A stretch of DNA of 64,000 nucleotides from positions 849 through 64,848 of the forward strand of contig JBAZPZ010000003.1 in the NCBI GenBank assembly GCA_041645495.1, given 5' to 3'. Positions 1 through 63,770 of the stretch are shown one piece after another. The notes under the pieces are model-generated. The model saw only the letters and a program-made list of their open reading frames with translations. It was not told where the DNA came from and did no database searches. This stretch comes from Fidelibacterota bacterium (GTDB lineage: Bacteria; Fidelibacterota; UBA2242). Every line of letters begins with the position of its first letter. Position 1 is the first letter of the stretch. Made by a program: the position numbers and the translations under genes.

Positions 1-503
1 TTCATGTCGGGTAGTCTGGAACATGCTTCAATGATTTTTCCTTCATTGGCTTTGAATTCTTCACGCCATTTTTCATAATAAACATCTAAAGCCCCGTCTT
101 TTGTATGCAGCGCATTTCTCACCTGCGAATCATAGATTAGAACCGGATGTTTGATTTTAATCCAAAGAAACTTTGTCGTAAGCGACAGAAGGTTTTTATT
201 TCCATACTTGACGGATATTCTTCTTTCAATTTCACGTATTTCTTTAACGGGGTCATCCTTAAAGTCGTCTGGTTTTAGAGGATCGATGATGTCCAAAACC
301 GGTTCGTATCGAGCAAGCGCTCTCTTTTCGTCGTATATTGAAGGTAAATTTCTCGCTACTCTATAAAAGCCACCGGCATTCTTTAATGCTTTTAGTTTTT
401 CACTCCTATTTCCATTAGATAATGCCTCACAGTACCCCATGTCATACATGAGCCACTGATTTAGATAAAGTAGCGAGCAATATTCAAAAGTTTTGGTTGC
501 CAC
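1..503 (-). CDS. Partial paralog (C-terminus runs off the window start) of the 207-aa hypothetical protein at 6753-7376; probable GTG start at 503
   Basis: Positions 3-510 align at about 93% nucleotide identity with 6877-7380, with no indels inside the coding part. The reading frame stays open on the minus strand. The ATG of copy B corresponds to GTG here. Not in the ORF track because there is no in-window stop. Confidence 0.5.
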   Translation of the reverse strand, partial: MATKTFEYCSLLYLNQWLMYDMGYCEALSNGNRSEKLKALKNAGGFYRVARNLPSIYDEKRALARYEPVLDIIDPLKPDDFKDDPVKEIREIERRISVKYGNKNLLSLTTKFLWIKIKHPVLIYDSQVRNALHTKDGALDVYYEKWREEFKANEGKIIEACSRLPDM

Positions 504-540
504 ATCTTGCTTCAATTTTTTCTCCTCCGAAATCCCTTAT

Positions 541-630
541 CATAATGCTATGAATTTATTCCCAAACAATTCTTTTATCAAGACACTTTTAACCTTCAGA
601 AGGTTAGAAACCTTCTGAAGGTTTTAACAC
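541..630. repeat. R element copy 1: ~90-bp intergenic repeat with two tandem 15-bp palindromes, AACCTTCAGAAGGTT at 591-605 and AACCTTCTGAAGGTT at 609-623
   Basis: Direct sequence match to 9790-9880 (about 85-90% identity). The two palindromes are mutual reverse complements, forming a perfect 15-bp stem with a 3-nt loop. The element lies in the divergent region between the 207-aa paralog (start 503, minus) and thrA (start 713, plus). Confidence 0.6.
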
Positions 631-712
631 TCTTGGCAGGTTCGGGAAAATATCGTATTTTTCGTCGGATCGATTTTATTGAGCATTTGACACACAGACT
701 GAAAGTTAGAGT

Positions 713-3181
713 ATGAAAGTTCTAAAATTCGGCGGAACCTCAGTAGGCAAGCCGGAAAATCTGAAAACCATTTTTCAGATCGTCGCAAAAGAAATCCAAA
801 GCGGAACCGACGTCATCACGGTCTTTTCGGCGCTCAGCAAAGTCACGGATCAGTTGACGGAAATGAGCCGCTTAGCCGCGAAAAGAGACGTGGCCTATAA
901 AACAGTCTATGACGACCTGCGCAACCGCCATTTCCAGTTCATCGAGAAAGTGATGCCGCCGGTTGAACGGGAATCCGTGATCGCGGAAATCGAATCCATT
1001 CTCTCCGAACTGCAGGACATCGTGCATGGCGTTTACTTGTTGAAGGAATTATCCGGGCAGTCGCTCGACCTGATCCTGAGTTTCGGCGAACGCCTGTCTT
1101 GTACGATCATCGCCGCCTATGGCAAGTCCGCCGGCCATGCGACTCATTACGCGGATGCCCGGCAAATTTTCACGACCAATGACCACTTCGGGGCGGCGCG
1201 GATCATTTCGAATATTACAACTCCCAAAATACAGGCCCTTTTTCAAAATTATACCGGAGTACCTGTCGTAACCGGATTTATTGCGGCGACCGAAGACGGT
1301 GTCACGACGACTCTGGGACGAGGCGGCTCCGACCTGACCGCTTCCCTGATCGGCGCGGCCTTAGATGCCGAAGAAATTCAGATCTGGACGGACGTCAACG
1401 GTTTCATGTCCGCCGATCCGCACAAGGTCAAAGAAGCCTTTTCTCTGCGTGAACTCAGTTACGAAGAAGCAGTTGAACTCAGTCACTTCGGCGCCAAAGT
1501 GCTTTTCCCACCGACTATTCAGCCGGTGATAGATAAAAAGATTCCAGTCCGGATTATGAACACTTTCAATCCGGATTTTCCCGGCACGGTCATCAAGAAA
1601 AATCCTTCTGCCAACGGCGGTTTTATTAAAGGAATCACCTCGATCAGGCATATTTCTCTGCTGACTGTTCAGGGCAGTGGCATGATCGGCGTCAGCGGCA
1701 TTTCGTCCCGCCTGTTCGGCGCGCTCGCCAAAGTCAACGTGAATGTGATCCTGATTTCCCAGGCATCCTCGGAACATTCCATCTGCGTGGCCATTTTGCA
1801 TGATTCCGTCCATAAGGCAAAAACGGCAATCGAAGAGGAATTCTCGATGGAGATCAAAGTCCGCATGGTCGACCCGGTCATCGTGGAAAATGACCTGATC
1901 ATCATCGCCGTGGTCGGTGAACGGATGCGTAAAACCACCGGACTGGCCGGGCGACTCTTCAGTGCTCTCGGCGAAAAAACCATCAATGTCGTGGCTATTG
2001 CACAGGGCTCTTCGGAATTGAACATCTCGATTGTAATCGATCAAAAGGACGAGGATCAGGCACTCAACGCCATCCACAATGCCTTCTTCGCAAAAAAAGT
2101 AAAAGTGAACCTGTTCCTTTTCGGCGTCGGACTGATCGGTTCAGCTCTTATCGAACAGATTAGATCGAATTATATCAATTTGCTGAATAAATATGCCCTA
2201 GATTTGAAAGTCGTCGGGCTGGCCAACAGCCGGAAAATGCTGATCGACAAAGACGGCATCGATTTGAATGACTGGCGAAAATCCCTGAACGATTCCCCGG
2301 TCAAAACCGATATGCAAGTGTTGCTAGCTGAGATAAAGAAACTGAATCTGGATAACAATGTTTTAGTAGATTGTACTGCCAGCGCCGAAATCGTGACGCA
2401 TTATGAACAAGTTTTGACCGGGCGGACCTCCATCGTCACCGCGAATAAAATCGGCAACACCGGTTCGTATTCCCAATATGTCAAATTCCGGGACCTCGCG
2501 AAAAGCAAACACGTCCATTTCCTCTATGAAACCAACGCCGGGGCGGCTCTGCCGATCATCAGCACTCTGCGGGACATGATCAATTCCGGCGACCGGATTA
2601 TCCGGATCGAAGCGATCCTGTCCGGCACAATCAGTTATATACTCAATAATTTCAAGCCGGGGAAAAAGTTCAGCGACATCGTCCGCGAAGCCAAAGATAA
2701 AGGTTTTACCGAACCCGACCCGCGCGATGACCTCAGTGGTCTCGATTTCGCCCGCAAAGTTCTGATCCTCGCCCGGGAGATCGGGAATCCCACTGAACTA
2801 GCCGATATTCAGATCGAACCGATCTTGCCGGAGAATTGCTACAAAGCCCCTTCGATCGAGGCGTTCTTCGAGGAACTTGAAAAATCCAATGCTTACTTCG
2901 ATAAATTGCTACAACAGGCGCACGCCGAAGGCAAAGTCCTACGCTATATCGCGATTTACGAAAACGAAAAAACGTCGATGAAATTAGAAAAAGTGAATTC
3001 CGCCCATCCCTTCTATTCGCTGAGCGGCAGTGACAATATCATTGCCTTTACGACTAATCGTTACGCCGAAAATCCGCTGGTTATCAAAGGAGCGGGCGCC
3101 GGCGCGGAAGTGACGGCCGCGGGCGTCATGGCGGATATTTTCAAGATTGCCAACGCCGTAATGAAGAGTAAGAGTTTCTGA
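713..3181 (+). CDS. thrA: Bifunctional aspartokinase / homoserine dehydrogenase
   Basis: 822 aa. N-terminal aspartokinase (MKVLKFGGTSVG), two ACT regions, and a C-terminal homoserine dehydrogenase domain. thrB follows. Confidence 0.9.
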   Translation: MKVLKFGGTSVGKPENLKTIFQIVAKEIQSGTDVITVFSALSKVTDQLTEMSRLAAKRDVAYKTVYDDLRNRHFQFIEKVMPPVERESVIAEIESILSELQDIVHGVYLLKELSGQSLDLILSFGERLSCTIIAAYGKSAGHATHYADARQIFTTNDHFGAARIISNITTPKIQALFQNYTGVPVVTGFIAATEDGVTTTLGRGGSDLTASLIGAALDAEEIQIWTDVNGFMSADPHKVKEAFSLRELSYEEAVELSHFGAKVLFPPTIQPVIDKKIPVRIMNTFNPDFPGTVIKKNPSANGGFIKGITSIRHISLLTVQGSGMIGVSGISSRLFGALAKVNVNVILISQASSEHSICVAILHDSVHKAKTAIEEEFSMEIKVRMVDPVIVENDLIIIAVVGERMRKTTGLAGRLFSALGEKTINVVAIAQGSSELNISIVIDQKDEDQALNAIHNAFFAKKVKVNLFLFGVGLIGSALIEQIRSNYINLLNKYALDLKVVGLANSRKMLIDKDGIDLNDWRKSLNDSPVKTDMQVLLAEIKKLNLDNNVLVDCTASAEIVTHYEQVLTGRTSIVTANKIGNTGSYSQYVKFRDLAKSKHVHFLYETNAGAALPIISTLRDMINSGDRIIRIEAILSGTISYILNNFKPGKKFSDIVREAKDKGFTEPDPRDDLSGLDFARKVLILAREIGNPTELADIQIEPILPENCYKAPSIEAFFEELEKSNAYFDKLLQQAHAEGKVLRYIAIYENEKTSMKLEKVNSAHPFYSLSGSDNIIAFTTNRYAENPLVIKGAGAGAEVTAAGVMADIFKIANAVMKSKSF

Positions 3182-4119
3182 TGAAGTCCATAACGGTTTT
3201 CGCTCCCGCCACCGTGGCCAATGTCGCCTGCGGTTTCGACGTCTTCGGATTCGCCGTACATGAACCGGGCGACGTCGCTAAGGTCACTCTGCGGGAAACT
3301 CCCGGCGTCGAAATTACCCGCATTACCGGCGACAGCAGACAGTTGCCGAAATCCGCCGAGAAGAATACGGCCGGTTTCGCGGCCATCCGTTATCTCGAAA
3401 CCATCGACTCCAAACAGGGCGTCGAAATCGAATTGCAGAAGAAAATGCCGCTGAATAGCGGCCTGGGTTCGAGCGCTGCCAGCGCGGTTGCCGTCCTTTT
3501 TGCGATCAATGCGCTTTTCGAAAACCGGCTCACGAAACATGAATTGCTCAGTATCGCGATACAGTCGGAGAAATTAGCCTGCGGCGCCGCGCACGCCGAC
3601 AACGTCGCTCCGGCGCTTTTCGGCGGTTTTGTACTTATCCGTGAAAACGATCCGCCGGACATCGTGGAATTGCCGGTTCCGGATAACCTTTACTGTACGA
3701 TCATTCACCCGGAAGTCGAAATTCGCACCGCGGATGCCCGCAATATCCTCACTCCGCAGATTCCCCTGAAGGATGCAGTCAGGCAATGGGCGAACACGGC
3801 GGGATTGGTCGCCGGACTTTTCCGGAAAGACTTTGCGCTCATCGGCCGCTCTTTACACGATCACGTCATCGAACCACAACGGGCTATGCTTATTCCCTAT
3901 TTCTATGAATTGAAACAGGCGGCTTTAGCCAGCGGCGCCCTCGGTTGCAGTATATCCGGTTCGGGACCTTCCGTCTTCGCGCTATCGCAAACGCAAGTCG
4001 TTGCCGCGAAAATCGCCGAGGCCATGCAAACCGTCCTGAATAATCACGGGATCGGCAATCAGATTTACGTCTCTCCCATCAGCACCAAAGGACCGGAAAT
4101 CATCGCTCAAGAGGAATAA
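3181..4119 (+). CDS. thrB: Homoserine kinase
   Basis: 312 aa GHMP kinase with the PLNSGLGSSAASAVA motif. Start overlaps the thrA stop (ATGA). Confidence 0.9.
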   Translation: MKSITVFAPATVANVACGFDVFGFAVHEPGDVAKVTLRETPGVEITRITGDSRQLPKSAEKNTAGFAAIRYLETIDSKQGVEIELQKKMPLNSGLGSSAASAVAVLFAINALFENRLTKHELLSIAIQSEKLACGAAHADNVAPALFGGFVLIRENDPPDIVELPVPDNLYCTIIHPEVEIRTADARNILTPQIPLKDAVRQWANTAGLVAGLFRKDFALIGRSLHDHVIEPQRAMLIPYFYELKQAALASGALGCSISGSGPSVFALSQTQVVAAKIAEAMQTVLNNHGIGNQIYVSPISTKGPEIIAQEE

Positions 4120-4123
4120 AACT

Positions 4124-5440
4124 TTGCGATATTACAGCACTGCCGACCGCACCCATAAAGTTCCCCTGAGAGAGGCCGTTCTGAACGGCATGCCCGCCGA
4201 CGGTGGTCTTTACATGCCCGAATCTCTGCCGGTAATGCCGGATAAATTCTTCCGCGATCTGCCGGAGATGACTTTTCAGTCCTTGTCTTTCGAAGTGGCC
4301 AAAACCCTGATCGGCAATGACGTCCCAGCCGACATCCTGCATAAAATTATAGACGACGCCATCAATTTCGAAACCACGCTGGTAAACATTACGGAAAAGA
4401 TCAAGACCCTCGAACTTTTCCACGGGCCGACCCTCGCTTTTAAAGACGTCGGCGCGCGGTTCATGTCGCGCCTGATGGCCTATTTCGTCCGGGGCAGTGA
4501 TCGTAAACTCAACATTCTGGTCGCGACCTCCGGCGACACCGGCAGCGCCGTCGCCAATGGTTTTTTCCAGATCCCCGGCATCAACGTCATCGTCCTTTAC
4601 CCGGCCGGGAAGATCAGCCTAATCCAGGAAAAGCAAATCGCGACGATGGGCGGGAACGTCATTGCTTTGAAAGTAAAAGGCACGTTCGACGATTGCCAGC
4701 GTTTGGTGAAAGCCGCCTTAGTCGATCCGGATGTTCAAAAAGCCCTGACGGTCAGTTCCGCCAATTCGATCAACATTGCGCGGCTGATTCCGCAAACCTT
4801 TTACTATTTCAATGCCTTCCGGCAGATCCAAGATTTTCACGACAAAAAGATTGCGGTCTGCGTTCCCAGCGGCAACTTCGGTAATCTTACCGCCGGCCTG
4901 ATCGCTAAAAAGATGGGACTGCCGGTTGACCGCTTCATCGCCGCTACCAACATCAACCATATCGTCCCGGATTACCTATCAACCGGGATTTTCCACCCGC
5001 AGGCTTCCATTCAGACCATTTCCAACGCCATGGACGTCGGGAATCCCAGCAATTTTGCCCGCATGCTCGCCCTCTATGACAATTCGTTAGACAACATGCG
5101 CCGGGACATCGACGGTGAATATTTTACCGACGACGAGACCCGCGCCGCGATTGCCGCAGTTTATCGTGAGATTGGCTACATTCTCGATCCGCACGGCGCC
5201 GTCGGTTACCTGGGAATTAAAAACTATCTCGACCGAAATCCGTCAACAGATACCGGTATTTTCCTTGAAACAGCGCACCCGGCGAAGTTCCGGGATGTGG
5301 TGGAACCGATCATCGGAACGACTATCGCGATCCCAGACCGGCTTGCAAAATTCCTTGAACGAAAAGTGTTATCAATAAATATATCCAGCGAGTATGAGGA
5401 ATTCAAAGCCTTCCTGTTGGAAAACAAGATTCTTTATTGA
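4124..5440 (+). CDS. thrC: Threonine synthase
   Basis: 438 aa, PLP enzyme with the FHGPTLAFKDVG lysine motif. Third gene of the thrABC operon. Confidence 0.9.
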   Translation: MRYYSTADRTHKVPLREAVLNGMPADGGLYMPESLPVMPDKFFRDLPEMTFQSLSFEVAKTLIGNDVPADILHKIIDDAINFETTLVNITEKIKTLELFHGPTLAFKDVGARFMSRLMAYFVRGSDRKLNILVATSGDTGSAVANGFFQIPGINVIVLYPAGKISLIQEKQIATMGGNVIALKVKGTFDDCQRLVKAALVDPDVQKALTVSSANSINIARLIPQTFYYFNAFRQIQDFHDKKIAVCVPSGNFGNLTAGLIAKKMGLPVDRFIAATNINHIVPDYLSTGIFHPQASIQTISNAMDVGNPSNFARMLALYDNSLDNMRRDIDGEYFTDDETRAAIAAVYREIGYILDPHGAVGYLGIKNYLDRNPSTDTGIFLETAHPAKFRDVVEPIIGTTIAIPDRLAKFLERKVLSINISSEYEEFKAFLLENKILY

Positions 5441-5462
5441 CCAAACCATCTTCCCGCGTTGA

Positions 5463-5687
5463 CTTACTGAATTGTTATGTGGTGCCGAACCGGAAGTCAT
5501 GACGCTCGCCAAATCTCATGGCAGCGGTGTCCAACTCGGCGCGGAAATCGTCGACAAATGCCGCGCCCAAAACCTGCTGATCAACTGCACGCACCAAACC
5601 GTTCTGCGCCTCATGCCCGCCATCAATGTCACCAAAGAGCAGATCGACCGCGCAGTCGCGATCATCGGCAAGGCGTTGGAAGAATAA
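5463..5687 (+). pseudogene. 3-prime remnant (about 74 codons) of a class-III aminotransferase gene (ArgD / acetylornithine aminotransferase-like)
   Basis: The translation (QLGAEIVDKCRAQNLLINCTHQTVLRLMPAINVTKEQIDRAVAIIGKALEE) matches the extreme C-terminus of ArgD/GabT-type aminotransferases. The frame is closed by TGA at 5460-5462, only 20 nt after the thrC stop, so about 330 N-terminal codons are missing. Confidence 0.6.
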
Positions 5688-5734
5688 AAGTCAACAGAGT
5701 TTCAAAATAGATGAGGATTCTTTTATATTGGATT

Positions 5735-6817
5735 TTACTTTATCTTCGTCAATAGCCAATCTGTCAATCCAAATTCAACTATCATTTTTGCCAGCCGTTT
5801 TGGTAAAATAAGTTCAATGTCTTCGTATTTGGTGTTTTTAAATTCAGCAAGAGTTTTGTCAGGGCTATGAACTACGAAATATAGTTTTCTAAATATACCA
5901 TGTGAAAACTCTTGAGCATATTTTTCAAATTCATCCACAGTTGCTCTGGATTTGACTTGTACCTGATACTTATCCTCTGTTATTGGCTCAACCAATTCCA
6001 TATCGACATATTTCATTACTTCCCCTAAAAGACTGACTCGACGCCAACCAGCATTTCGAAATATCAAATCAACCAAAGTCTCAAAATCTTTCCAGTGTAA
6101 TTGCTCCAATCCCATCGCAACTTCCGTTATCAGTTTTGCTTTATTTCGAGAGATCGATTTGAAAGCATTGCTTGGTTTATCATTTATAAGTCTTCTCAAC
6201 GTTTCAACTTCTGCTATTTCGCAAATTGTCCCTCGAAATCCCTGTACTTTCGCAATATTTCCAGGAATTTGACTAATCAATAAAGGCTTCCCTTTTATAT
6301 CATGATTATGCCATTCCCCCGAAAGCAAACGGTACACTGATATTTCATCCTTAAAGATACCTTTTTTACCAAGACGACACCACCAAAGCTGACATTTATG
6401 GAAAGTTATCCAAATATCGTTTGATGCGGATTGAGTTATTTTTTTTAGGGCATTTATATCCATTGTCGCGACCCCGTCAGTTTTATACTCATGTCTATAT
6501 TTTATTTTGAGTGCGTCCCAATCTCCTCGATTGATTTCTTCGAGCGTCCAATTATTCCACCCAATTCGCGCTTTATTTTCTCTAATGCTAGATGTTTCCC
6601 ATTCTCCTCCTCTACCCAGTTTGATGTAGTAGGCTTTCGTAAATTTTTCCGTTTTCATTTCAGTACCGTCCTTTAAAGATAAGCCTTCTTTTGTCTTTAT
6701 CGCTCGTTTTATATCAGTGGCGTAGCCTTGCAGAATCTGCCGGATGTTATTGTTAAGCACTGTTACCTTTGTTCCAAAGATAAATATCAAAAACTCTTTC
6801 ATGAAACCATGTTTCAT
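5735..6817 (-). CDS. Two-domain protein: unknown N-terminal domain (about 210 aa) fused to a C-terminal Mrr-type PD-(D/E)xK nuclease domain
   Basis: 360 aa. The C-terminal segment WKDFETLVDLIFRNAGW...YVDMELVEP...KYQVQVKS fits the Mrr_cat pattern (FE-LV-L, a D..E block, then a QVK lysine). The N-terminal region (AYYIKLGRGGEWE..ARIGW) was not recognised. The start overlaps the stop of the upstream 207-aa gene by 65 nt, so the two are co-transcribed; the alternative start MKEFLIF at 6802 still overlaps. Confidence 0.55.
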   Translation of the reverse strand: MKHGFMKEFLIFIFGTKVTVLNNNIRQILQGYATDIKRAIKTKEGLSLKDGTEMKTEKFTKAYYIKLGRGGEWETSSIRENKARIGWNNWTLEEINRGDWDALKIKYRHEYKTDGVATMDINALKKITQSASNDIWITFHKCQLWWCRLGKKGIFKDEISVYRLLSGEWHNHDIKGKPLLISQIPGNIAKVQGFRGTICEIAEVETLRRLINDKPSNAFKSISRNKAKLITEVAMGLEQLHWKDFETLVDLIFRNAGWRRVSLLGEVMKYVDMELVEPITEDKYQVQVKSRATVDEFEKYAQEFSHGIFRKLYFVVHSPDKTLAEFKNTKYEDIELILPKRLAKMIVEFGLTDWLLTKIK

Positions 6818-7376
6818 TTGATATCTCCCGAATATATTCTTCTGTTCCGACCTCCTGATTCACCGCATACTTATTCATCTCGGGTAGTCTGGAACATACT
6901 TCAATGATTTTTCCTTCATTGGCTTTGAATTCTTCACGCCATTTTTCATAATAAGCATCTAAAGCCCCGTCTTTTGTATGCAGCGCACTTCTCACCTGTG
7001 AATCATAGATTAGAATCGGATGCTTGATTTTAATCCAAAGAAACTTTGTCGTAAGCGACAGAAGGTTTTTATTTCCATACTTGGCGGATATACTTCTTTC
7101 AATTTCACGTATTTCTTTAACGGGGTCATCCTTAAAGTTGTCTGGTTTTAGAGGGTCGATAATGTCCAAAACCGGTGCGTATCTATCAAGCCCTTTCTTT
7201 TCGTCGTATTCCGAAGGTAAATTTCTCGCTACTCTATAAAAGCCACCGGCATTTTTTAATGCAGTCAGTTTTTCACTCTTGTTGCCATTAGATAATGCCT
7301 GACAGTAACCCATGTCATAGATGAGCCACTGATTTAGATAATAGAGCGAGCAATATTCAAAAGTTTTGATTGCCAT
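6753..7376 (-). CDS. Hypothetical protein (207 aa), first gene of the two-gene module with the Mrr-like nuclease
   Basis: Clean ORF with a Shine-Dalgarno (AAGGAGAGGT) 0-3 nt before the ATG, immediately downstream of the attC1 R-prime core. No transmembrane segment and no recognisable family. A paralog sits at 1-503. Confidence 0.6.
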   Translation of the reverse strand: MAIKTFEYCSLYYLNQWLIYDMGYCQALSNGNKSEKLTALKNAGGFYRVARNLPSEYDEKKGLDRYAPVLDIIDPLKPDNFKDDPVKEIREIERSISAKYGNKNLLSLTTKFLWIKIKHPILIYDSQVRSALHTKDGALDAYYEKWREEFKANEGKIIEVCSRLPEMNKYAVNQEVGTEEYIREISNETWFHERVFDIYLWNKGNSA

Positions 7377-7389
7377 ACCTCTCCTTGAT

Positions 7390-7452
7390 ACCTAACGCAA
7401 CGCCTCTCGGGGCGCGAGGAACGAGCGCTCCTTTTGCAGGCGCTTGTTAGGT
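7390..7452 (-). other. Integron-type attC recombination site (attC1, 63 bp)
   Basis: Read in the cassette (minus) direction: R-double-prime ACCTAAC (fits RYYYAAC and contains the TAA stop of ORF172), L-double-prime AAGCGCC, an imperfect inner palindrome, L-prime GGCGTTGC, and R-prime GTTAGGT (fits GTTRRRY). It is followed by SD + ATG of the next ORF. The complement of R-double-prime equals the TTAGGT found at the 5-prime edge of its own cassette. Confidence 0.6.
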
Positions 7453-7965
7453 GATTTTAAGTTGATAAATCTTGCATCCATACTGAGTGCGGCGAAAAAA
7501 AGCATAAATGGGAGGCAATGCCTTAGGTGTGACAAAGCCACCCTGTGAGAGGTTGATGTTATTGATTTGACTGTGGCGTCCGAATAGGCAAAGGAATGAC
7601 TGTGAATTAGTATACTTTTTCTGGAAAGCGGCTAACTTTTTATAATCAAGATTCACATCAAGCGTATTGATCCGCTTTCTAGGCCATTTAACTTCTAATG
7701 CGAAGTGGTATCGTTCCTTCTTTGCCACGAAATCAATCCTTTTATGGCCAACACTTCCCTCGTTTGGAAGAAAGCCCTTACAAGAAACCTCGCATTTAAC
7801 ATCGTATTTGCGAATCAAGAGTACGCGAAGAATAGACTCATACAATTGGTATTCGGTGAAAGCTATATTCGCGTCGCAAGCAGCAAGATAGCTGATATGC
7901 CCTGCCAAGGCCCGTTGAATGCGAAATAGTGATTCGTATGGTTCGTCGAGTTCACGCTTCCTCAT
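7447..7965 (-). CDS. Hypothetical protein (172 aa), possible PD-(D/E)xK-fold nuclease, alone in its cassette
   Basis: ORF with SD (AAGGAGATTAGATA) + ATG directly after the GTTAGGT core of attC2. The stop codon is embedded in the R-double-prime core of attC1. The segment RIDFVAKKERYHFALEVKW resembles a D..E-x-K nuclease motif. This is a weak inference. Confidence 0.5.
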   Translation of the reverse strand: MRKRELDEPYESLFRIQRALAGHISYLAACDANIAFTEYQLYESILRVLLIRKYDVKCEVSCKGFLPNEGSVGHKRIDFVAKKERYHFALEVKWPRKRINTLDVNLDYKKLAAFQKKYTNSQSFLCLFGRHSQINNINLSQGGFVTPKALPPIYAFFRRTQYGCKIYQLKIT

Positions 7966-7983
7966 TATCTAATCTCCTTAATT

Positions 7984-8041
7984 ACCTAACGCTGCGGCTC
8001 AGCGGCGGCGGAACGCCGTCCGCTGTAGCCGATTGTTGGGG
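7984..8041 (-). other. Integron-type attC recombination site (attC2, 58 bp)
   Basis: Cassette direction: R-double-prime CCCCAAC (8041-8035), inner imperfect palindrome AATCGGCTACAGCGG...CCGCCGCTGAGCCGCAGC, and R-prime GTTAGGT (7990-7984). It lies 9 nt after the HNH gene stop and 18 nt before the ORF172 ATG. Confidence 0.55.
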
Positions 8042-8049
8042 CTTCTCTT

Positions 8050-8772
8050 TCAAAGATTTCGCTCGATGATTTTCTTCACGTAGGCGGGCATTTCCTGCTG
8101 AAGAGCTTCCGTCTTCTTTTTCAATTTGTCATAAACTTCAACTTCAGCACCAGTCCACATGATGTCTAGTCGACGGGCTGAGCGCATGGCAATGTGTGCA
8201 TAATCCTCAGGGTAAGCCCAGTAGCATGAACGACAGATGTTGGAGTCTTTCTGCTCAAGCCAATTTGCACAATGCTCGCAAGACCAGGACTTCGCGCGAT
8301 TTGCCGAACCGCAGAGCAACATGAAGTCTTCTGGCTTCTGCTTTCCCTCGCCCATATCCCCCGCAACCTCAAAAGGGATACGATGGTCAATCTGCAGCTC
8401 ACGTTCGTCGAATGGTTCAAGATAAACAGCGCACCGCGAACCGTGCTTTTCGATTAAGGCTTGTTTCAGTTCCTTTGTGAAAGCCGTGCGCCCGATCAGT
8501 TTTCCGAATCGGGACTTACTTGGATCACCGAAGCGATATGCGGCGATCTTGCGCCCATCTGCGCCTTCCACCCTGTACATCTCAATTGGGATGCCGTTCT
8601 CTTTGACGTCGCGGACGGCACGTGGGGGATGATTGTAGCCGTATTTGTCCTTCAACTCCTGTGTGGTTATGAATCCATGCTTGAGAATGTGGTCAATAAC
8701 AGTCCGAGGACGCTTTGCCGTGACCTTCTTGCACAGCCGTATGAATTCTTTGGGAAGTTGCGGTTTCGTCAT
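8050..8772 (-). CDS. HNH-family restriction endonuclease (type II R-M, R subunit)
   Basis: 240 aa. HNH core LQIDHRIPFEVAGD ... LLCGSANRAKSWSCEHC with flanking Cys/His zinc ligands. The start overlaps the stop of the upstream methyltransferase (ATGA). Confidence 0.75.
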   Translation of the reverse strand: MTKPQLPKEFIRLCKKVTAKRPRTVIDHILKHGFITTQELKDKYGYNHPPRAVRDVKENGIPIEMYRVEGADGRKIAAYRFGDPSKSRFGKLIGRTAFTKELKQALIEKHGSRCAVYLEPFDERELQIDHRIPFEVAGDMGEGKQKPEDFMLLCGSANRAKSWSCEHCANWLEQKDSNICRSCYWAYPEDYAHIAMRSARRLDIMWTGAEVEVYDKLKKKTEALQQEMPAYVKKIIERNL

Positions 8773-9683
8773 GATCTCGTCTCAAAAAGGCACATTTGTT
8801 CGCTTTGCGGTAAGTGGTAGACAGTTTTTGATTCGATGAGTTCATCGGCAAGTGCTGGGGACAGGTAAAGAGATTCAACAGTCGCATCGTCCCTGCCCAG
8901 AAGGGTTGCTTGCGTAGATCGTCCGGCGTTCAACTCCATGTGCGAAAGGTTCAAGTGTTCGGGCAGGCGTACGCCATGAACTTTATTGCCGGTGCGCCCA
9001 TCGTAACTGACAATATATCGGATATGCCTGGCGTTGAGGTGCTCAAGAACTTCAACGAACTCACAAAACTGCACGCTAGCAAGATAACGAGTATCTCTAT
9101 TTCCACAGACGCCTTGATAAGGCGGATCCATATAAACCAAGTCGCCATCGCCTGCTCTCAGCACGGCATCACGGTAATTTGTAGAAGAAAATGATGTCTT
9201 GCCTTTCAGTAAATAGGACGCGCCACAAACCTGTTCGTGCATGGTCGCAGGCGTCGCTCCTCGCCGTCTGTTATCGGGGCTTTGGTTGAACTCGCCATTC
9301 GCGTTATACCGTACTGATGCTTTTACGCATCTGGCTAGAAGGTAGAGGAAGTAGTCTGGCCTTCCGGTAAGATTGAATTCATCCCGTATTTTGCGGTAAT
9401 AGGACTTAGGGTCGGCAAGTTGTTCTTTCCAAAGCGATTCGTACTCCTTGGCCAGTTTATCCGGTGTGTTGACAATAGCCCTCCAAAGGTCCACCAACGG
9501 CTTGTTCAGGTCGTTGATGTGAAATCGCTTGGCACGCCTGTGCGCAGCGGCGGCCAGCGAAATGGCGGCCGACCCAGCAAAAGGCTCATGCAGAGTCTCA
9601 ACACTAGCGGGGAAACATCGCAAGATGTCCCCGGCCAAGTTCCGCTTGCTTCCTTGGTATGGTATAGGATGAGGAACGTTCAT
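8769..9683 (-). CDS. N6-adenine DNA methyltransferase, Dam-like (D12 class)
   Basis: 304 aa. N-terminal PYQGSKR (AdoMet motif I of Dam-type methyltransferases) and catalytic VYMDPPYQG (DPPY motif IV). Paired with the HNH endonuclease. Confidence 0.8.
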   Translation of the reverse strand: MNVPHPIPYQGSKRNLAGDILRCFPASVETLHEPFAGSAAISLAAAAHRRAKRFHINDLNKPLVDLWRAIVNTPDKLAKEYESLWKEQLADPKSYYRKIRDEFNLTGRPDYFLYLLARCVKASVRYNANGEFNQSPDNRRRGATPATMHEQVCGASYLLKGKTSFSSTNYRDAVLRAGDGDLVYMDPPYQGVCGNRDTRYLASVQFCEFVEVLEHLNARHIRYIVSYDGRTGNKVHGVRLPEHLNLSHMELNAGRSTQATLLGRDDATVESLYLSPALADELIESKTVYHLPQSEQMCLFETRS

Positions 9684-9789
9684 ATCAGCACTCTATTCAA
9701 AAACCTGTCTTCTTTTCATGTCCTTCTCGTGCCCCAACATATGTTTATACCGCACACCTGACTCCGTTTTTTTCTCTTTTGAAAGCCCT

Positions 9790-9880
9790 CATCATGACGC
9801 CATCAATTTAGACTTAAACAATTCTTTTGTCAAGATACTCTCAACCTTCAGAAGGTTGAAAACCTTCTGAAGGTTTTACC
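9790..9880. repeat. R element copy 2: same ~90-bp repeat; palindromes at 9843-9857 and 9861-9875
   Basis: Matches 541-630. Lies 2-12 nt after the selB stop (9887) and about 170 nt upstream of the methyltransferase start (9683). Confidence 0.6.
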
Positions 9881-9886
9881 ATTCCT

Positions 9887-52593: not shown

Positions 52594-53635
52594 GGGTTAA
52601 TGGAACATTTTAGCTGCTAAATATTTTTTAATTCGCTGATTTATACCAAGTTACCGGAAAAATATTTTTAAGGAAAAATAATATGGCAAAAAAAATGTCC
52701 GTTTTGTGGTCACCAAAGAGTAAAAAAATGCGGTAAAAATAGCACTGGAAAACAACGATATTACTGTTTGGATTGCCATAAATATTTTCAACGTCATAAA
52801 TCCAAAAAGACCATCCCGACCAGTCGGGATCAAATCTGGCACAAATATGTATGGGAACGACAGACCTTATCAGATCTGACATGTGAGTATAATCGCAGTA
52901 ATAAATGGCTCAGGAAGCAGATATTCGGAATAAAAGTAAGACGCCCTAAGATCAACCCTTGCACAGTCGTAGTTGAAGCAGATAAGACCTTTTTCAACAG
53001 GCGTGAAGGTCTCTGCCTATTTCACGCTCCCGCTTTAAAAAGAACCATTGCTTATGCCTTCATTGAAACCGAAACAGCCTCCATTTACAGGCGTTTGAGA
53101 GAAACGATTCAAGGTTTTGGATTTACTCTGTTGGCAGCTGTCGTCGACGGCAGAAAGGGTATCAAGGAAGTGTTTGATGATGTTCCTGTTCAGATGTGTC
53201 AATTTCACCAATTGATGATACTTAGACGGTATTTGACGATGAATCCGCGTTTAGAAGCCGGGAGGGAATTAAGAGAAATAAGCAGGGATTTGTGTAAAGT
53301 TGAGCGATTAGAATTTGAACAACGTTTCATAAAGTGGAATGAAAAATGGGATGATTTTTTGAAAGAAAAAACCGTTATCGAAGATGTTAAGTGGCATTAT
53401 ACTCATAAACGTTTGCGATCAGCCAGACGTAGTCTAATGACCAATTTACCTTACCTTTTTTCGTACCAGGATTATCCGGAACTTTCCATTCCTAACACAA
53501 TAAATTATGCCGAAAGTTTTAATGCCCGACTTAAAGAATTGCTCAGAGTCCACCGCGGTTTTAGTAGACCGTTAAAACGTAAGATTATAAGTGAAATTTT
53601 GGCGATTTAGCAGCTAAAAAGTTCCATTAACCCCC
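52594..53635 (+). mobile_element. Insertion sequence (about 1.04 kb), IS1/IS1595-like, with imperfect terminal inverted repeats
   Basis: Left inverted repeat GGGTTAATGGAACATTTTAGCTGCTAAAT (52594-52622). Right end 53605-53635 is its reverse complement (GGGGGTTAATGGAACTTTTTAGCTGCTAAAT), about 27 of 29 matching. It encloses a single transposase gene. No clear target-site duplication was seen. Confidence 0.75.
52683..53610 (+). pseudogene. IS1/IS1595-family transposase, interrupted by a +1 frameshift in an A8 homopolymer (52688-52695)
   Basis: ATG at 52683 opens MAKK, then the frame is lost. With A7 the product would read MAKKCPFCGHQRVKKCGKNSTGKQRYYCLDCHKYF (N-terminal zinc ribbon) continuous with the 280-aa ORF at 52768-53610. 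The C-terminal block NTINYAESFNARLKELLRVHRGFSRPLKRKI resembles the IS1 InsB / IS1595 terminal motif. The ORF ends inside the right inverted repeat. Confidence 0.65.
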
Positions 53636-56474: not shown

Positions 56475-57714
56475 CGATCTGTCCTCCGATGGATTTTAAA
56501 TCTTCAAAAAAAGCCGGATAAGATTTTGCAACGCATTCTGCCGCCTCAACCGTCACTGTTGATTCCGCCGTCAAACCGGCAATCGCCGCCGACATCGCGA
56601 TCCGGTGATCGCCGTGCGAAAAAACGCGACCGCCGGCAATTTTTCCGCCTGAAATGATCATTTCGTCTTTCTGAATCGTGACCGAAACACCGAGCGAACC
56701 GAACACACTTTTCAGCGCCTCCGCGCGATCGCTCTCTTTATGTATCAACCGGCTCACGCCGTGAATGACCGAGCATCCGTCGCAATTCGCCGCCAACGCA
56801 ACCAGCGGTGGAAAAAGATCGGGACAGTCCGTCGCGTCGAATTCAAATGCCGCAAGCCGATTTTTCCGAACCGTCACGGAATTTTCACCAAATTTTATTT
56901 TTGCGCCAACCGACCGCAGAACGTCGATAATCATACGATCCGGTTGTTTGGAAACGCTGGAAATGCCTTCGACTGTCACCGAACCGGCGATCGCGCCCGC
57001 AACCAGCAAAAACGCGGCTCCGCTCCAGTCGCCCTCGACAAAATAATCGCACGCCCGATAGCGCTGATTTCCCGGAATTAAAAACCGATCTTCACGTCGG
57101 TTGACATCTATTTGAAAAGCACGAAGAACTTCCAGCGTCAGATCGATGTAGGCCTTACTTTTCAGATTTGTCACATGGATTTCGGAATCGTTCTGCGCCA
57201 ACGGAAGCGCCATCAGCAAGCCGGTTAAAAATTGCGAACTGAGCGAACCATCGACTTCGGTTTTACCGCCGCGAATTGGTCCGCGAATCCGAACCGGCAA
57301 ATAGCCATTTTCAGTTGAGCAAAACGCACCCAAATCCGCAAGCGGCGATTCCATATTTGGTAACGGACGCCGTTTGAGTGAATCTTCGCCGGTCAACGTC
57401 AATTCGTCCGATTCTAACGCGCAGATCGGCGTGAACATTCTGAGGCAAAGTCCCGACTCGCCGCAATTCAGCGTTTTTTCTATCGGAGAAATTCCACCGC
57501 GAATTGTTAGACGGTCGGCCGATTGAGCTACAGACGCGCCCAATCCGCGAATGACAGACAACGCCGCCAGCGAATCCGCGCAAAACGTCGGATTGCGCAA
57601 AGTCGTCTCGCCGTCGGTCAGCAAGGCCGCGGCGATGGCTCTCTGCATCAGACTTTTCGATGCAGGCGCGCGCAGTTTTCCATTAATGACTGAATGTCGA
57701 ACCGACTTCTTCAT
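56467..57714 (-). CDS. aroA: 3-phosphoshikimate 1-carboxyvinyltransferase (EPSP synthase)
   Basis: 415 aa EPSP-synthase fold (LPASKSLMQRAIAAALL, GGISPIEKTLNCGESGLCLRMF). Confidence 0.85.
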   Translation of the reverse strand: MKKSVRHSVINGKLRAPASKSLMQRAIAAALLTDGETTLRNPTFCADSLAALSVIRGLGASVAQSADRLTIRGGISPIEKTLNCGESGLCLRMFTPICALESDELTLTGEDSLKRRPLPNMESPLADLGAFCSTENGYLPVRIRGPIRGGKTEVDGSLSSQFLTGLLMALPLAQNDSEIHVTNLKSKAYIDLTLEVLRAFQIDVNRREDRFLIPGNQRYRACDYFVEGDWSGAAFLLVAGAIAGSVTVEGISSVSKQPDRMIIDVLRSVGAKIKFGENSVTVRKNRLAAFEFDATDCPDLFPPLVALAANCDGCSVIHGVSRLIHKESDRAEALKSVFGSLGVSVTIQKDEMIISGGKIAGGRVFSHGDHRIAMSAAIAGLTAESTVTVEAAECVAKSYPAFFEDLKSIGGQIDE

Positions 57715-63708: not shown

Positions 63709-63770
63709 CGGAGCGAAGCGGAGATTCGCCGTGGTGAACCGGAGCGAAGCGGAGATTCGCCTTGGTGAAT
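63709..63770. repeat. Two tandem 31-bp direct repeats, CGGAGCGAAGCGGAGATTCGCC(G/T)TGGTGAA(C/T)
   Basis: Units at 63709-63739 and 63740-63770, immediately 3-prime of the GIY-YIG gene stop. Each unit contains a small GCGAA...TTCGC stem. Confidence 0.5.

What the first reader, a model, noticed from the sequence alone, without database searches (positions are those of the whole stretch)
7376..9740. Integron-like gene cassette array with two well-formed attC sites and no integrase in view (CALIN-like)
attC1 (7390-7452) and attC2 (7984-8041) have RYYYAAC and GTTRRRY cores (ACCTAAC...GTTAGGT and CCCCAAC...GTTAGGT in the cassette direction), imperfect internal palindromes, and lengths of 63 and 58 bp.

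Each sits between a stop codon and the Shine-Dalgarno plus ATG of the next ORF. The stop codon of ORF172 lies inside the R-double-prime core, a classic cassette feature.

Boundary bookkeeping also works. ORF172's cassette begins TTAGGT, which is the complement of its own R-double-prime (ACCTAAC). Upstream of the M-R cassette there is GTTGGGG (plus-strand CCCCAAC at 9732-9738), matching the complement of attC2's R-double-prime (CCCCAAC).

All cassettes are co-oriented. No intI or attI is visible; selB abuts the array.
Basis: seen in the sequence. Interest (0 to 1): 0.75.

Follow-up and report, generated by a model that had tools for sequence, protein, structure and literature searches.

The report
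Integrase-less integron cassette array (CALIN)

Summary
Confirmed.

**attC tests.** A covariance model built only from 12 attC sites of clinical class 1 integrons ranks attC2 (7984-8041) first in the 64-kb window (42.9 bits, E 3e-8). It scores attC1 (7390-7452) only at noise level (E 0.42). A second model, built from 25 environmental attCs, ranks the two sites first and second (E 6e-14 and 1.7e-4; next best 0.22).

**Homologous cassettes.** Homologues of the R-M pair, ORF172 and ORF207 sit in other metagenomic cassette arrays. There the 5' end (G|TTRRRY) co-varies with each cassette's own R'' core. One such array has the R-M cassette first, next to a frameshifted intI.

**Structure.** The array has three cassettes: M-R, ORF172, and ORF207A with a decayed attC. 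It follows a hairpin-plus-promoter-like leader. No integrase or integrase remnant lies in the window.

**Paralogous copy.** A second leader+ORF207 copy (1-632) lacks the 2.38-kb cassette block, most simply by deletion.

**Verdict.** A new member of a known kind, of modest interest. How it arose is unresolved: intI lost, array split off, or insertion in trans.

The parts
9841..9884 (-). Double palindrome (AACCTTCAGAAGGTT, 3 nt, AACCTTCTGAAGGTT) that begins 3 nt after the selB stop (9887). It is the first element of the leader.
   Evidence: The motif occurs only here and at 591-623 in the window (expected 0.07), and in no other fetched locus apart from copies of this genome.
9739..9884 (-). Non-cassette leader in front of the first cassette. 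The stretch 9884-9753 is 80% identical to 632-501. The last 14 nt (CGGTATAAACATAT) plus G abut the cassette.
   Evidence: No attC model hit better than E 3.5 here.
9805..9833 (-). Promoter-like site TTGACA-17-TAAATT pointing into the array. Copy B keeps it at 581-553 as TTGATA-17-TAAATT.
   Evidence: The number of such sites is not above the shuffle expectation, so this is a lead only.
9732..9738 (-). GTTGGGG, the 5' boundary (G|TTGGGG) of the M-R cassette. It is the complement of the CCCCAAC core of attC2.
   Evidence: The same boundary precedes M-R homologues in L160, L146, L163 and L164, and GTTGGGA does so in L159 and L168.
7990..9737 (-). Cassette 1 (1,748 nt): methyltransferase, restriction endonuclease and attC2.
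   Evidence: Boundaries taken from the G|TT crossover points.
8769..9683 (-). M: Dam-family (D12 class) N6-adenine DNA methyltransferase, 304 aa.
   Evidence: Pfam PF02086, 1.4e-35. PADLOC MTase_II, 1.7e-85. TIGR00571 above its cut-off.
8050..8772 (-). R: type II restriction endonuclease, 240 aa. It overlaps M by 4 nt.
   Evidence: PADLOC REase_II PDLC03566, 3.3e-60.
7984..8041 (-). attC2, 58 nt, well formed.
   Evidence: Class 1 model 42.9 bits, E 3e-8. Environmental model 59.2 bits, E 6e-14. Fold z -5.2. 44 of 58 positions match the dfrB1 attC.
7396..7989 (-). Cassette 2 (594 nt): ORF172 and attC1. It is the only cassette flanked by two recognisable attC sites.
7447..7965 (-). ORF172: no named family. 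Predicted restriction-endonuclease-like (PD-(D/E)xK, Hjc-like) fold.
   Evidence: No Pfam, NCBIfam or PADLOC hit. AF2 pLDDT 88.8. Foldseek matches Hjc at E 1.7e-3. K75 and D78 are invariant, E91 and K93 nearly so.
7390..7452 (-). attC1, 63 nt, atypical and weaker.
   Evidence: Class 1 model 14.4 bits, E 0.42. Environmental model 24.9 bits, E 1.7e-4. Fold z -2.1. The consensus fold with its L006 and L007 homologues has 5 compensated pairs among 20.
6753..7395 (-). Start of cassette 3 (TTAGGTATCAAGGAGAGGT, then ATG) and ORF207A (7376-6753), of unknown function.
   Evidence: The 5' end is homologous to the cassette start GTTAAGTATCAATGATGAGACATG in L016, where attCs flank the gene. 185 homologues.
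6699..6758 (-). Decayed attC of ORF207A. The GCTTAAC core holds the stop codon, the stems are mutated, and the R' core was lost through a 15-nt deletion.
   Evidence: Alignment with the attC after copy B (L001 8351-8410, 24.5 bits, E 0.0013) and with the intact L016 site (45.2 bits). No model hit in the window at this place.
5735..6817 (-). ORF360, a weak Mrr-type restriction-endonuclease match. The likely true start is the ATG at 6657. It follows ORF207A and no attC follows it.
   Evidence: Pfam Mrr_cat, 4.9e-4, just below the cut-off.. GC is 0.36-0.39 against about 0.53 in the flanks.
1..632 (-). Copy B: leader (632-501) fused directly to ORF207B (GTG at 503-501), which runs off the window start. 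It has no cassette block.
   Evidence: Its attC lies just outside the window (L001 8351-8410).

Best explanation
The region is a cluster of integron gene cassettes with no integron integrase nearby (a CALIN). It lies in the chromosome of a 'Candidatus Neomarinimicrobiota' (Fidelibacterota) MAG.

**Layout, read on the minus strand after selB.**
- A 146-nt leader: a hairpin followed by a promoter-like site.
- Cassette 1: a type II restriction-modification pair plus attC2.
- Cassette 2: ORF172, with a restriction-endonuclease-like fold, plus attC1.
- Cassette 3: ORF207A with a decayed attC.
- Then an Mrr-like gene.

**How the cassettes arrived (inferred from what is known of integrons, not tested here).** Each cassette was once a circle. 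An integron integrase inserted it by recombining the folded bottom strand of its attC at G|TT. That leaves TTRRRY at the cassette's 5' end, complementary to its own R'' core.

**Present state (inferred).** With no integrase in cis the array is now static. The cassettes are probably transcribed from the leader and translated from their own Shine-Dalgarno sites. Cassette 2, flanked by attC2 and attC1, could still be excised by an integrase supplied in trans. Cassette 3 probably could not.
For: **Shown.**
- The organism name comes from the NCBI record of ORF172.
- attC2 is the top hit in the window for a model built only from clinical class 1 attCs (E 3e-8).
- attC2 and attC1 are the top two hits for a model built from 25 environmental attCs, none from this window (E 6e-14 and 1.7e-4; next best 0.22).
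- The attC2 bottom strand folds with extrahelical bases on the expected 3' arm.
- All occurrences of the two core heptamers in the window lie at cassette boundaries.
- All 29 model hits (E < 1) in 80 loci carrying R homologues are on the gene strand. In 14 loci an attC starts 4-26 nt after the R stop.
- L168 has a frameshifted intI (43% identical to IntI1) divergent from an M-R homologue as first cassette, followed by three more attCs. L189 has intI fragments in the same position.
- ORF172 homologues (L006, L007, L008-L015) and an ORF207 homologue (L016) are flanked by attCs, with 5' ends that co-vary with their R'' cores.
- GC falls from about 0.53 to 0.37-0.43 across ORF360 to ORF172.
- The two attCs are 532 nt apart on one strand. 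That meets the published CALIN rule of at least 2 attCs less than 4 kb apart with no intI (PMC4889954, read).
Against: - attC1 is at noise level for the class 1 model (E 0.42; equally strong chance hits lie inside aroA). Its fold is only modestly better than shuffles.
- The R'' core of attC2 departs from RYYYAAC at its first base.
- What precedes cassette 1 is neither an attC nor a known attI.
- Nothing shows that the sites recombine or that the leader is a promoter.
- An intI elsewhere in the genome cannot be excluded, because only this contig could be read.
- The closest R homologues (74-89%: L111-L113, L116-L126) are not in a cassette context, so the R-M module also travels by other routes.
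Confidence: 0.9

Rival explanations
1. Origin A: the array is the remnant of a complete integron that once sat here. The intI gene and most of attI were deleted, and the leader (hairpin, promoter-like site, ...ACATATG|TT) is what remains of the attI/Pc platform.
For: - The first cassette keeps an exact G|TTGGGG boundary against non-attC sequence, as at an attI junction.
- The same R-M cassette is the first cassette next to a decaying intI in L168 and L189.
- A promoter-like site conserved in both leader copies points into the array.
Against: - No intI remnant was found by tblastn at E <= 10.
- selB ends only 3 nt before the hairpin, which leaves no room for a divergent intI.
- The leader shows no similarity to the L168 junction region beyond the core.
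- In published surveys 95% of CALINs have no intI pseudogene nearby (PMC4889954).
Confidence: 0.25
2. Origin B: the cassettes were inserted in trans at a secondary, genome-type (attG-like, G|WT) site downstream of selB. The integrase was encoded elsewhere in the genome or on a transient element.
For: - The left junction is a bare G|TT in otherwise unremarkable sequence.
- Experiments show efficient integrase-driven insertion at 5'-GWT-3' sites, and the authors propose that many small CALINs arise this way (10.1101/2022.09.11.507474).
- No IS or integrase is nearby.
Against: - It needs either three successive insertions or the transfer of a pre-assembled array.
- The paralogous copy B is not an empty site. 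Its junction is at the ORF207 start codon, not at the G|TT.
- No genome without the insertion is available for comparison.
Confidence: 0.3
3. Origin C: the array was split from an integron located elsewhere in this genome by a rearrangement. The duplicated leader+ORF207 units that flank thrABC are traces of that rearrangement.
For: - Direct repeats 9884-9753 / 632-501 and 7375-6705 / 502 to beyond the window start bracket ORF360, a truncated aminotransferase gene (5472-5687) and thrCBA.
- Published CALIN origins include such splits.
Against: - No intI within 54 kb on one side or about 8 kb on the other.
- No IS elements lie at the junctions.
- The rest of the genome could not be read.
Confidence: 0.2
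4. The two sites are ordinary intergenic hairpins (terminators or REP-like repeats) that resemble attC by chance. The genes are then a plain defence island.
For: - attC1 alone is weak (E 0.42, z -2.1).
- No integrase is present.
Against: - attC2 scores like clinical attCs and matches the dfrB1 attC at 44 of 58 positions.
- Both sites are the top two hits of an independent model.
- There is no T-tract terminator at either site.
- Homologous genes elsewhere carry attCs with co-varying boundaries.
Confidence: 0.02

Closest known systems
CALIN (cluster of attC sites lacking an integron integrase; Cury et al. 2016, PMC4889954)
   Same: - Two recognisable attC sites 532 nt apart on one strand.
- Cassettes co-oriented.
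- No intI or intI pseudogene nearby.
- A small array of non-resistance cassettes, as in most published CALINs.
   Different: - It has a third cassette whose attC has decayed.
- It is preceded by a leader that is duplicated elsewhere on the contig.
- The host phylum (Fidelibacterota/Marinimicrobia) does not appear together with integrons in any substantive way in the held literature. That is absence from a limited library, not proof.
attC of the dfrB1 and aadA1 cassettes of class 1 mobile integrons
   Same: - attC2 has the same architecture as these sites: 7-bp R box, unpaired spacer, 3 bp, bulge, 6 bp, bulged A, short stem, TTC loop.
- It is 58 nt, against 57 nt (dfrB1) and 60 nt (aadA1).
- 44 of 58 positions match dfrB1.
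   Different: - Both bulged bases are A on the top strand (T on the bottom strand), rather than the usual C and A.
- The first core base is C, not a purine.
- The cargo is an R-M system in an environmental chromosome, not a resistance gene on a plasmid.
Integron cassettes that encode anti-phage defence (10.1101/2024.07.02.601719, Mobile Integrons Encode Phage Defense Systems)
   Same: - Compact defence-type genes packaged as cassettes: type II R-M, a restriction-endonuclease-fold protein, and an Mrr-like neighbour.
   Different: - No defence phenotype was tested here.
- The array lacks an integrase.
- ORF172 and ORF207 match no PADLOC family.
Complete integron in metagenome contig LSQX01316376.1 (locus L168)
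   Same: - An M-R cassette with R 68% identical as first cassette, with boundary G|TTGGGA and attC core TCCCAAC.
- Further attCs follow downstream.
   Different: - L168 keeps a (frameshifted) intI divergent from the array. The window has selB and a hairpin leader in that position.

Membership tests
attC recombination site | Inverse core sites R'' (RYYYAAC) and R' (GTTRRRY), with AAC/GTT conserved | tested here: met
   attC1 has ACCTAAC...GTTAGGT. attC2 has CCCCAAC...GTTAGGT, whose first base is C rather than R.
attC recombination site | Imperfect palindrome (L''/L' boxes) that folds as single-stranded DNA, with extrahelical bases on the R''-L'' arm of the bottom strand | tested here: met
   - attC2 meets it: -21.9 kcal/mol, z -5.2, and two extrahelical T on the 3' arm of the plus (bottom) strand.
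- attC1 is only partial: z -2.1, with an asymmetric 7 x 4 internal loop on the expected side.
attC recombination site | Recognised by an attC covariance model built from independent sites | tested here: met
   - attC2: E 3e-8 (class 1 model) and 6e-14 (environmental model).
- attC1: E 0.42 (class 1 model, not significant) and 1.7e-4 (environmental model).
-. IntegronFinder's own model was not available.
attC recombination site | Recombined by an integron integrase as a folded bottom strand | not testable with these tools
   Needs a conjugation-based or in vitro recombination assay.
Integron gene cassette | A compact unit of ORF(s) with a short 5' UTR and an attC at the 3' end. The 5' end TTRRRY is complementary to the unit's own R'' core. 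| tested here: met
   - M-R: TTGGGG / CCCCAAC.
- ORF172: TTAGGT / ACCTAAC.
- Gaps of 8-18 nt between ORFs and sites.
- Not met for ORF207A: it begins TTAGGT, but its decayed attC has the core GCTTAAC.
Integron gene cassette | The same gene-plus-attC unit is found in different arrays (mobility) | tested here: met
   - M-R in 14 of 80 loci with an attC directly downstream, with varied neighbours.
- ORF172 family in L006, L007 and L008-L015.
- ORF207 in L016.
CALIN | [quoted passage not shown] | tested here: met
   attC2 and attC1 are 532 nt apart, both on the minus strand. Definition read.
CALIN | No integron integrase in the neighbourhood | tested here: met
   No tyrosine-recombinase motif. No tblastn match to IntI1 at E <= 10 in the window or in L001, which extends 574 nt further. 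The rest of the genome could not be searched.
Complete integron | intI gene with an adjacent attI and Pc | tested here: not met
   intI is absent. attI cannot be recognised by sequence. A promoter-like site exists in the leader but is not statistically distinctive.
attC x attG (genome-site) insertion | A cassette joined to ordinary genomic DNA at a 5'-GWT-3' site, shown by comparison with an empty site | tested here: inconclusive
   The left junction ...CATATG|TTGGGG is compatible. No empty site is available. Copy B is a deletion-type derivative, and relatives are too distant.

The most novel reading that the evidence does not exclude
The roughly 146-nt hairpin-plus-promoter-like leader precedes cassettes at both loci of this contig. 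It may not be an accidental neighbour. It could be an integrase-independent or orphan attI-type docking and expression platform that was copied together with its cassettes. On that reading this lineage maintains small integrase-less cassette platforms, here stocked with DNA-targeting genes. These include ORF207, a widespread cassette family conserved across phyla, whose confident all-alpha fold resembles HhH-GPD DNA glycosylases only faintly.
Probability: 0.1. Interest if true: 0.55.

Novelty: new member of a known kind. Interest (0 to 1): 0.3.

Why it matters
- It shows that a reader working from raw sequence alone can recognise a genuine integron cassette array.
- It adds an example from a poorly studied, mostly uncultivated phylum.
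- It supports the emerging view that integron cassettes move compact defence genes, here a complete type II R-M system found in at least 14 other arrays, among distant bacteria.
- It does not change the understanding of integrons.
- Two follow-ups are modest but concrete. ORF172 and ORF207 are cassette-borne families of unknown function. The locus, with its paralogous cassette-free copy, could show how integrase-less arrays form and decay.

Tried and rejected
- **Rfam scan of the window:** no hit. No attC family matched in that library.
- **tRNA scan:** none, so no tRNA-linked island.
- **Strict RYYYAAC...GTTRRRY plus hairpin scan:** found only attC1. It missed attC2 because of the C at its first core base, so the rule is too strict.
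- **Class 1 model hits at 57412-57608:** examined and rejected. They lie inside aroA (EPSP synthase) coding sequence and are at chance level.
- **Strain comparison through SelB in the species-representative genomes:** the best relatives are 46-48% identical and share no synteny downstream of selB.
- **Hairpin as an attC or a genome-wide repeat:** no model hit, and no copy outside this genome.
- **Copy B as the empty site of the insertion:** rejected. Its junction lies at the ORF207 start codon between 7-nt imperfect repeats. This fits a deletion, not an attC crossover.
- **Two ORF172-homologue contigs:** could not be read because no DNA was available.
- **Sequence-profile search of solved structures for ORF207:** only coiled-coil noise.
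- **Foldseek against the PDB for ORF207:** nothing.


Full report
**What is in the sequence.**

All genes of the finding lie on the minus strand. After selA and selB (stop at 9887) the order is:
- A double palindrome, 9884-9841.
- About 100 nt of non-coding leader.
- GTTGGGG at 9738-9732.
- A Dam-family methyltransferase M (9683-8769), overlapping by 4 nt a restriction endonuclease R (8772-8050).
- attC2 (8041-7984).
- ORF172 (7965-7447).
- attC1 (7452-7390).
- ORF207A (7376-6753).
- ORF360 (to 5735).
- A 71-aa C-terminal fragment of a class III aminotransferase on the plus strand (5472-5687).
- thrC, thrB and thrA.

The one exception is that CCCCAAC departs from RYYYAAC at its first base. GC falls from about 0.53 in the flanks to 0.36-0.43 over ORF360 to ORF172. 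According to the NCBI name attached to ORF172, the source is a 'Candidatus Neomarinimicrobiota' MAG with a 64,983-nt contig.

**Is it more than chance?**

- On both strands of the window CCCCAAC occurs twice and ACCTAAC three times. All five occurrences are at the predicted cassette boundaries.
- As single-stranded DNA the plus strand of attC2 folds at -21.9 kcal/mol (z -5.2, 0 of 200 shuffles as good). It has two extrahelical T on its 3' arm. From established knowledge of attC, that is the arm where bottom-strand extrahelical bases lie. So the plus strand is the bottom strand and the cassettes read on the minus strand, like the genes.
- attC1 folds less convincingly (z -2.1).

**Covariance-model test.**

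Rfam gave no hit. I therefore fetched class 1 integrons from clinical and environmental plasmids using IntI1. I extracted 12 attC sites (aadA1, aadA2, psp, qacL, cmlA1, estX, aacA4, dfrB1, lnuF, ereA2, dfrA14, dfrA27). I aligned them and built a model of the R box and L box with its bulges.

With filters off, this model gave:
- attC2 as the best hit in the window: full length, minus strand, 42.9 bits, E 3e-8.
- attC1 third, at 14.4 bits and E 0.42. That is no better than two chance hits inside aroA.

attC2 shares 44 of 58 positions with the dfrB1 attC.

A second model was built from 25 environmental attCs found next to R homologues in other metagenomes, none of them from this window. It gave 59.2 bits (E 6e-14) for attC2 and 24.9 bits (E 1.7e-4) for attC1. 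The next best hit scored 13.6 bits, E 0.22. The attC2 score with this second model is partly due to homology with the training sites. The attC1 score is not.

**Related cassettes elsewhere.**

*ORF172.* It has 29 homologues and no named family.
- In L006 and L007 (78-80% identical) the gene is preceded by GTTAAGC, and its TAA stop lies in GCTTAAC.
- In L008-L015 (42% identical) the pair is GTTAGCC and GGCTAAC, within an array HNH_5 - DUF1780 - ORF171 - DUF429 in which every gene is followed by an attC.
- In the window the pair is GTTAGGT and ACCTAAC.
- So the two ends of the cassette co-vary, as expected of a unit that circularises.
- The consensus fold of attC1 with its L006 and L007 homologues has 5 compensated pairs among 20.

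*R.* It has many homologues; 80 metagenome loci at 67-89% identity were fetched.
- All 29 model hits in them are on the gene strand.
- In 14 loci an attC begins 4-26 nt after the R stop, with core CCCCAAC or TCCCAAC.
- Where the upstream side is present, M is preceded by an attC that ends GTTGGGG (L160, L146, L163, L164) or GTTGGGA (L159).
- L168 carries a frameshifted intI (43% identical to IntI1) divergent from the M-R cassette as first cassette (junction ...ACTTG|TTGGGA), followed by three more attCs. L189 has intI fragments in the same position.
- The closest R homologues (L111-L113, L116-L126) are not in a cassette context, so the R-M module also moves by other means.

**A third cassette and a second copy.**

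Window 1-502 is 94% identical to 6874-7375, and 501-632 is 80% identical to 9753-9884. So the leader plus ORF207 occurs twice in direct orientation.

- Copy B has its own attC immediately after the gene (L001 8351-8410, just outside the window): GCTTAAC...GTTAGAT, 24.5 bits, E 0.0013.
- In L016 an 80% identical ORF207 homologue with a partner gene is flanked by attCs (E 0.001 and 8e-9).
- In L016 the gene begins GTTAAGTATCAATGATGAGACATG, against GTTAGGTATCAAGGAGAGGTATG in the window.
- ORF207A is therefore a third cassette. Its attC (6758-6699) has mutated stems and lost its R' core through a 15-nt deletion.

Copy B lacks the 2.38-kb block 9752-7374. The junctions are AGGTGTG|CGG (A, left), AGGTATG|GCA (A, right) and AGATGTG|GCA (B). 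This is what a deletion between 7-nt imperfect direct repeats would leave. It also explains why ORF207B starts with GTG. I infer that B is a deletion derivative of an A-like arrangement, not an empty site.

**Cargo.**

- M is a type II Dam-family methyltransferase.
- R is a type II restriction endonuclease (PADLOC 3.3e-60).
- ORF172 gives a confident model (pLDDT 88.8). It has a weak but consistent match to Hjc-type restriction-endonuclease-fold nucleases, and conserved K, D, E and K residues.
- ORF360 has a sub-threshold Mrr_cat match.
- The array therefore looks like a small defence island assembled from cassettes. This is consistent with published work that integron cassettes encode phage defence (10.1101/2024.07.02.601719). 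The defence role here is inferred.

**What it is and how it works.**

By the published rule it is a CALIN: at least two attCs less than 4 kb apart on one strand and no intI (PMC4889954). No tyrosine-recombinase motif or IntI1-like sequence occurs in the window or in the 574 nt beyond it.

- *Shown:* the sites, their model scores, their fold, the boundary bookkeeping, and the presence of the same cassettes in other arrays, including one next to an intI.
- *Inferred:* past insertion by integrase-mediated bottom-strand recombination at G|TT. Also present transcription from the leader, where TTGACA-17-TAAATT at 9833-9805 is conserved in copy B but is not statistically distinctive. Also residual excisability of the ORF172 cassette in trans.

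**Origin.**

What precedes the first cassette (...CGGTATAAACATATG|TTGGGG) is neither an attC nor next to an intI. Three origins remain open and are listed as rivals:
- Loss of intI from a resident integron.
- Insertion in trans at a genome-type G|WT site (10.1101/2022.09.11.507474).
- Separation from a distant integron by rearrangement.

The relatives available are too distant to decide.

**Unexplained.**

- The reason for the duplicated leader-ORF207 units around thrABC.
- The truncated aminotransferase gene.
- The recurrent contig ends in independent assemblies: 9951 (L002, L191), 8235 (L001, L003, L004) and 7996 inside attC2 (L191). These may reflect population heterogeneity of the array.

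**Verdict.**

The element is a new member of a known kind. It is of modest interest, mainly for the phylum, the widely shared R-M cassette, and two cassette-borne protein families of unknown function.

Noticed in passing
window 1-632 (continues in L001 7605-8410): A second copy of the hairpin+leader (80% identical) is fused directly to an ORF207 paralogue (94% nt, 90% aa; 14 synonymous and 20 nonsynonymous codon differences). Its own attC lies just beyond the window start. Together with copy A it brackets ORF360, the aminotransferase fragment and thrCBA as direct repeats.
   Followed up: partly
window 5472-5687 (+): A 71-aa C-terminal fragment of a class III aminotransferase (ArgD-like; Pfam PF00202, positions 358-403 of 403) sits 31 nt after thrC and converges on ORF360. 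It is a truncated gene marking an old rearrangement or deletion at the far edge of the low-GC block.
   Followed up: no
[not shown]
   Followed up: partly
window 9951, 8235, 7996 (ends of contigs L002, L191, L001, L003, L004): Independent assemblies of this same locus, all 100% identical to the window, end at the same few positions. These are inside the selB 3' end, inside R, and 6 nt before the attC2 crossover. This hints at variant arrangements in the population.
   Followed up: partly
window 9684-9731 (-): Homologous M genes (L160, L163, L189) start at an upstream ATG (MKTRTVPHP...). In the window that ATG opens an 8-codon mini-ORF (ATGAAAAGAAGACAGGTTTTTGAATAG), and M restarts at 9683 after about 25 extra bases. 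So the 5' end of the M gene has been remodelled.
   Followed up: partly
L168 (LSQX01316376.1) 1970-7169: A nearly complete integron: a frameshifted intI (43% identical to IntI1), an M-R cassette as first cassette, then attCs at 4725, 6072, 6584 and 7102 with boundaries that fit one another (AGCTAAC after GTTAGCT, TCATAAC after GTTATGA).
   Followed up: partly
window 57412-57608 (-): Two adjacent weak attC-model hits, one reading GTCTAACAATTC...GCGTTAGAA, fall inside the aroA (EPSP synthase) coding sequence. They are chance matches and a useful gauge of the noise level of the class 1 model.
   Followed up: yes
window 52594-52622 and 53605-53633: A 29-nt inverted repeat, 97% complementary, with arms 982 nt apart, brackets a 280-aa ORF (52768-53610, +). 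It could be a small mobile element or a regulated unit.
   Followed up: no
window 63709-63769 (+): Two tandem copies of a 30-nt unit (CGGAGCGAAGCGGAGATTCGCCGTGGTGAA, 97% identical, spacing 31 nt) lie near the end of the window.
   Followed up: no
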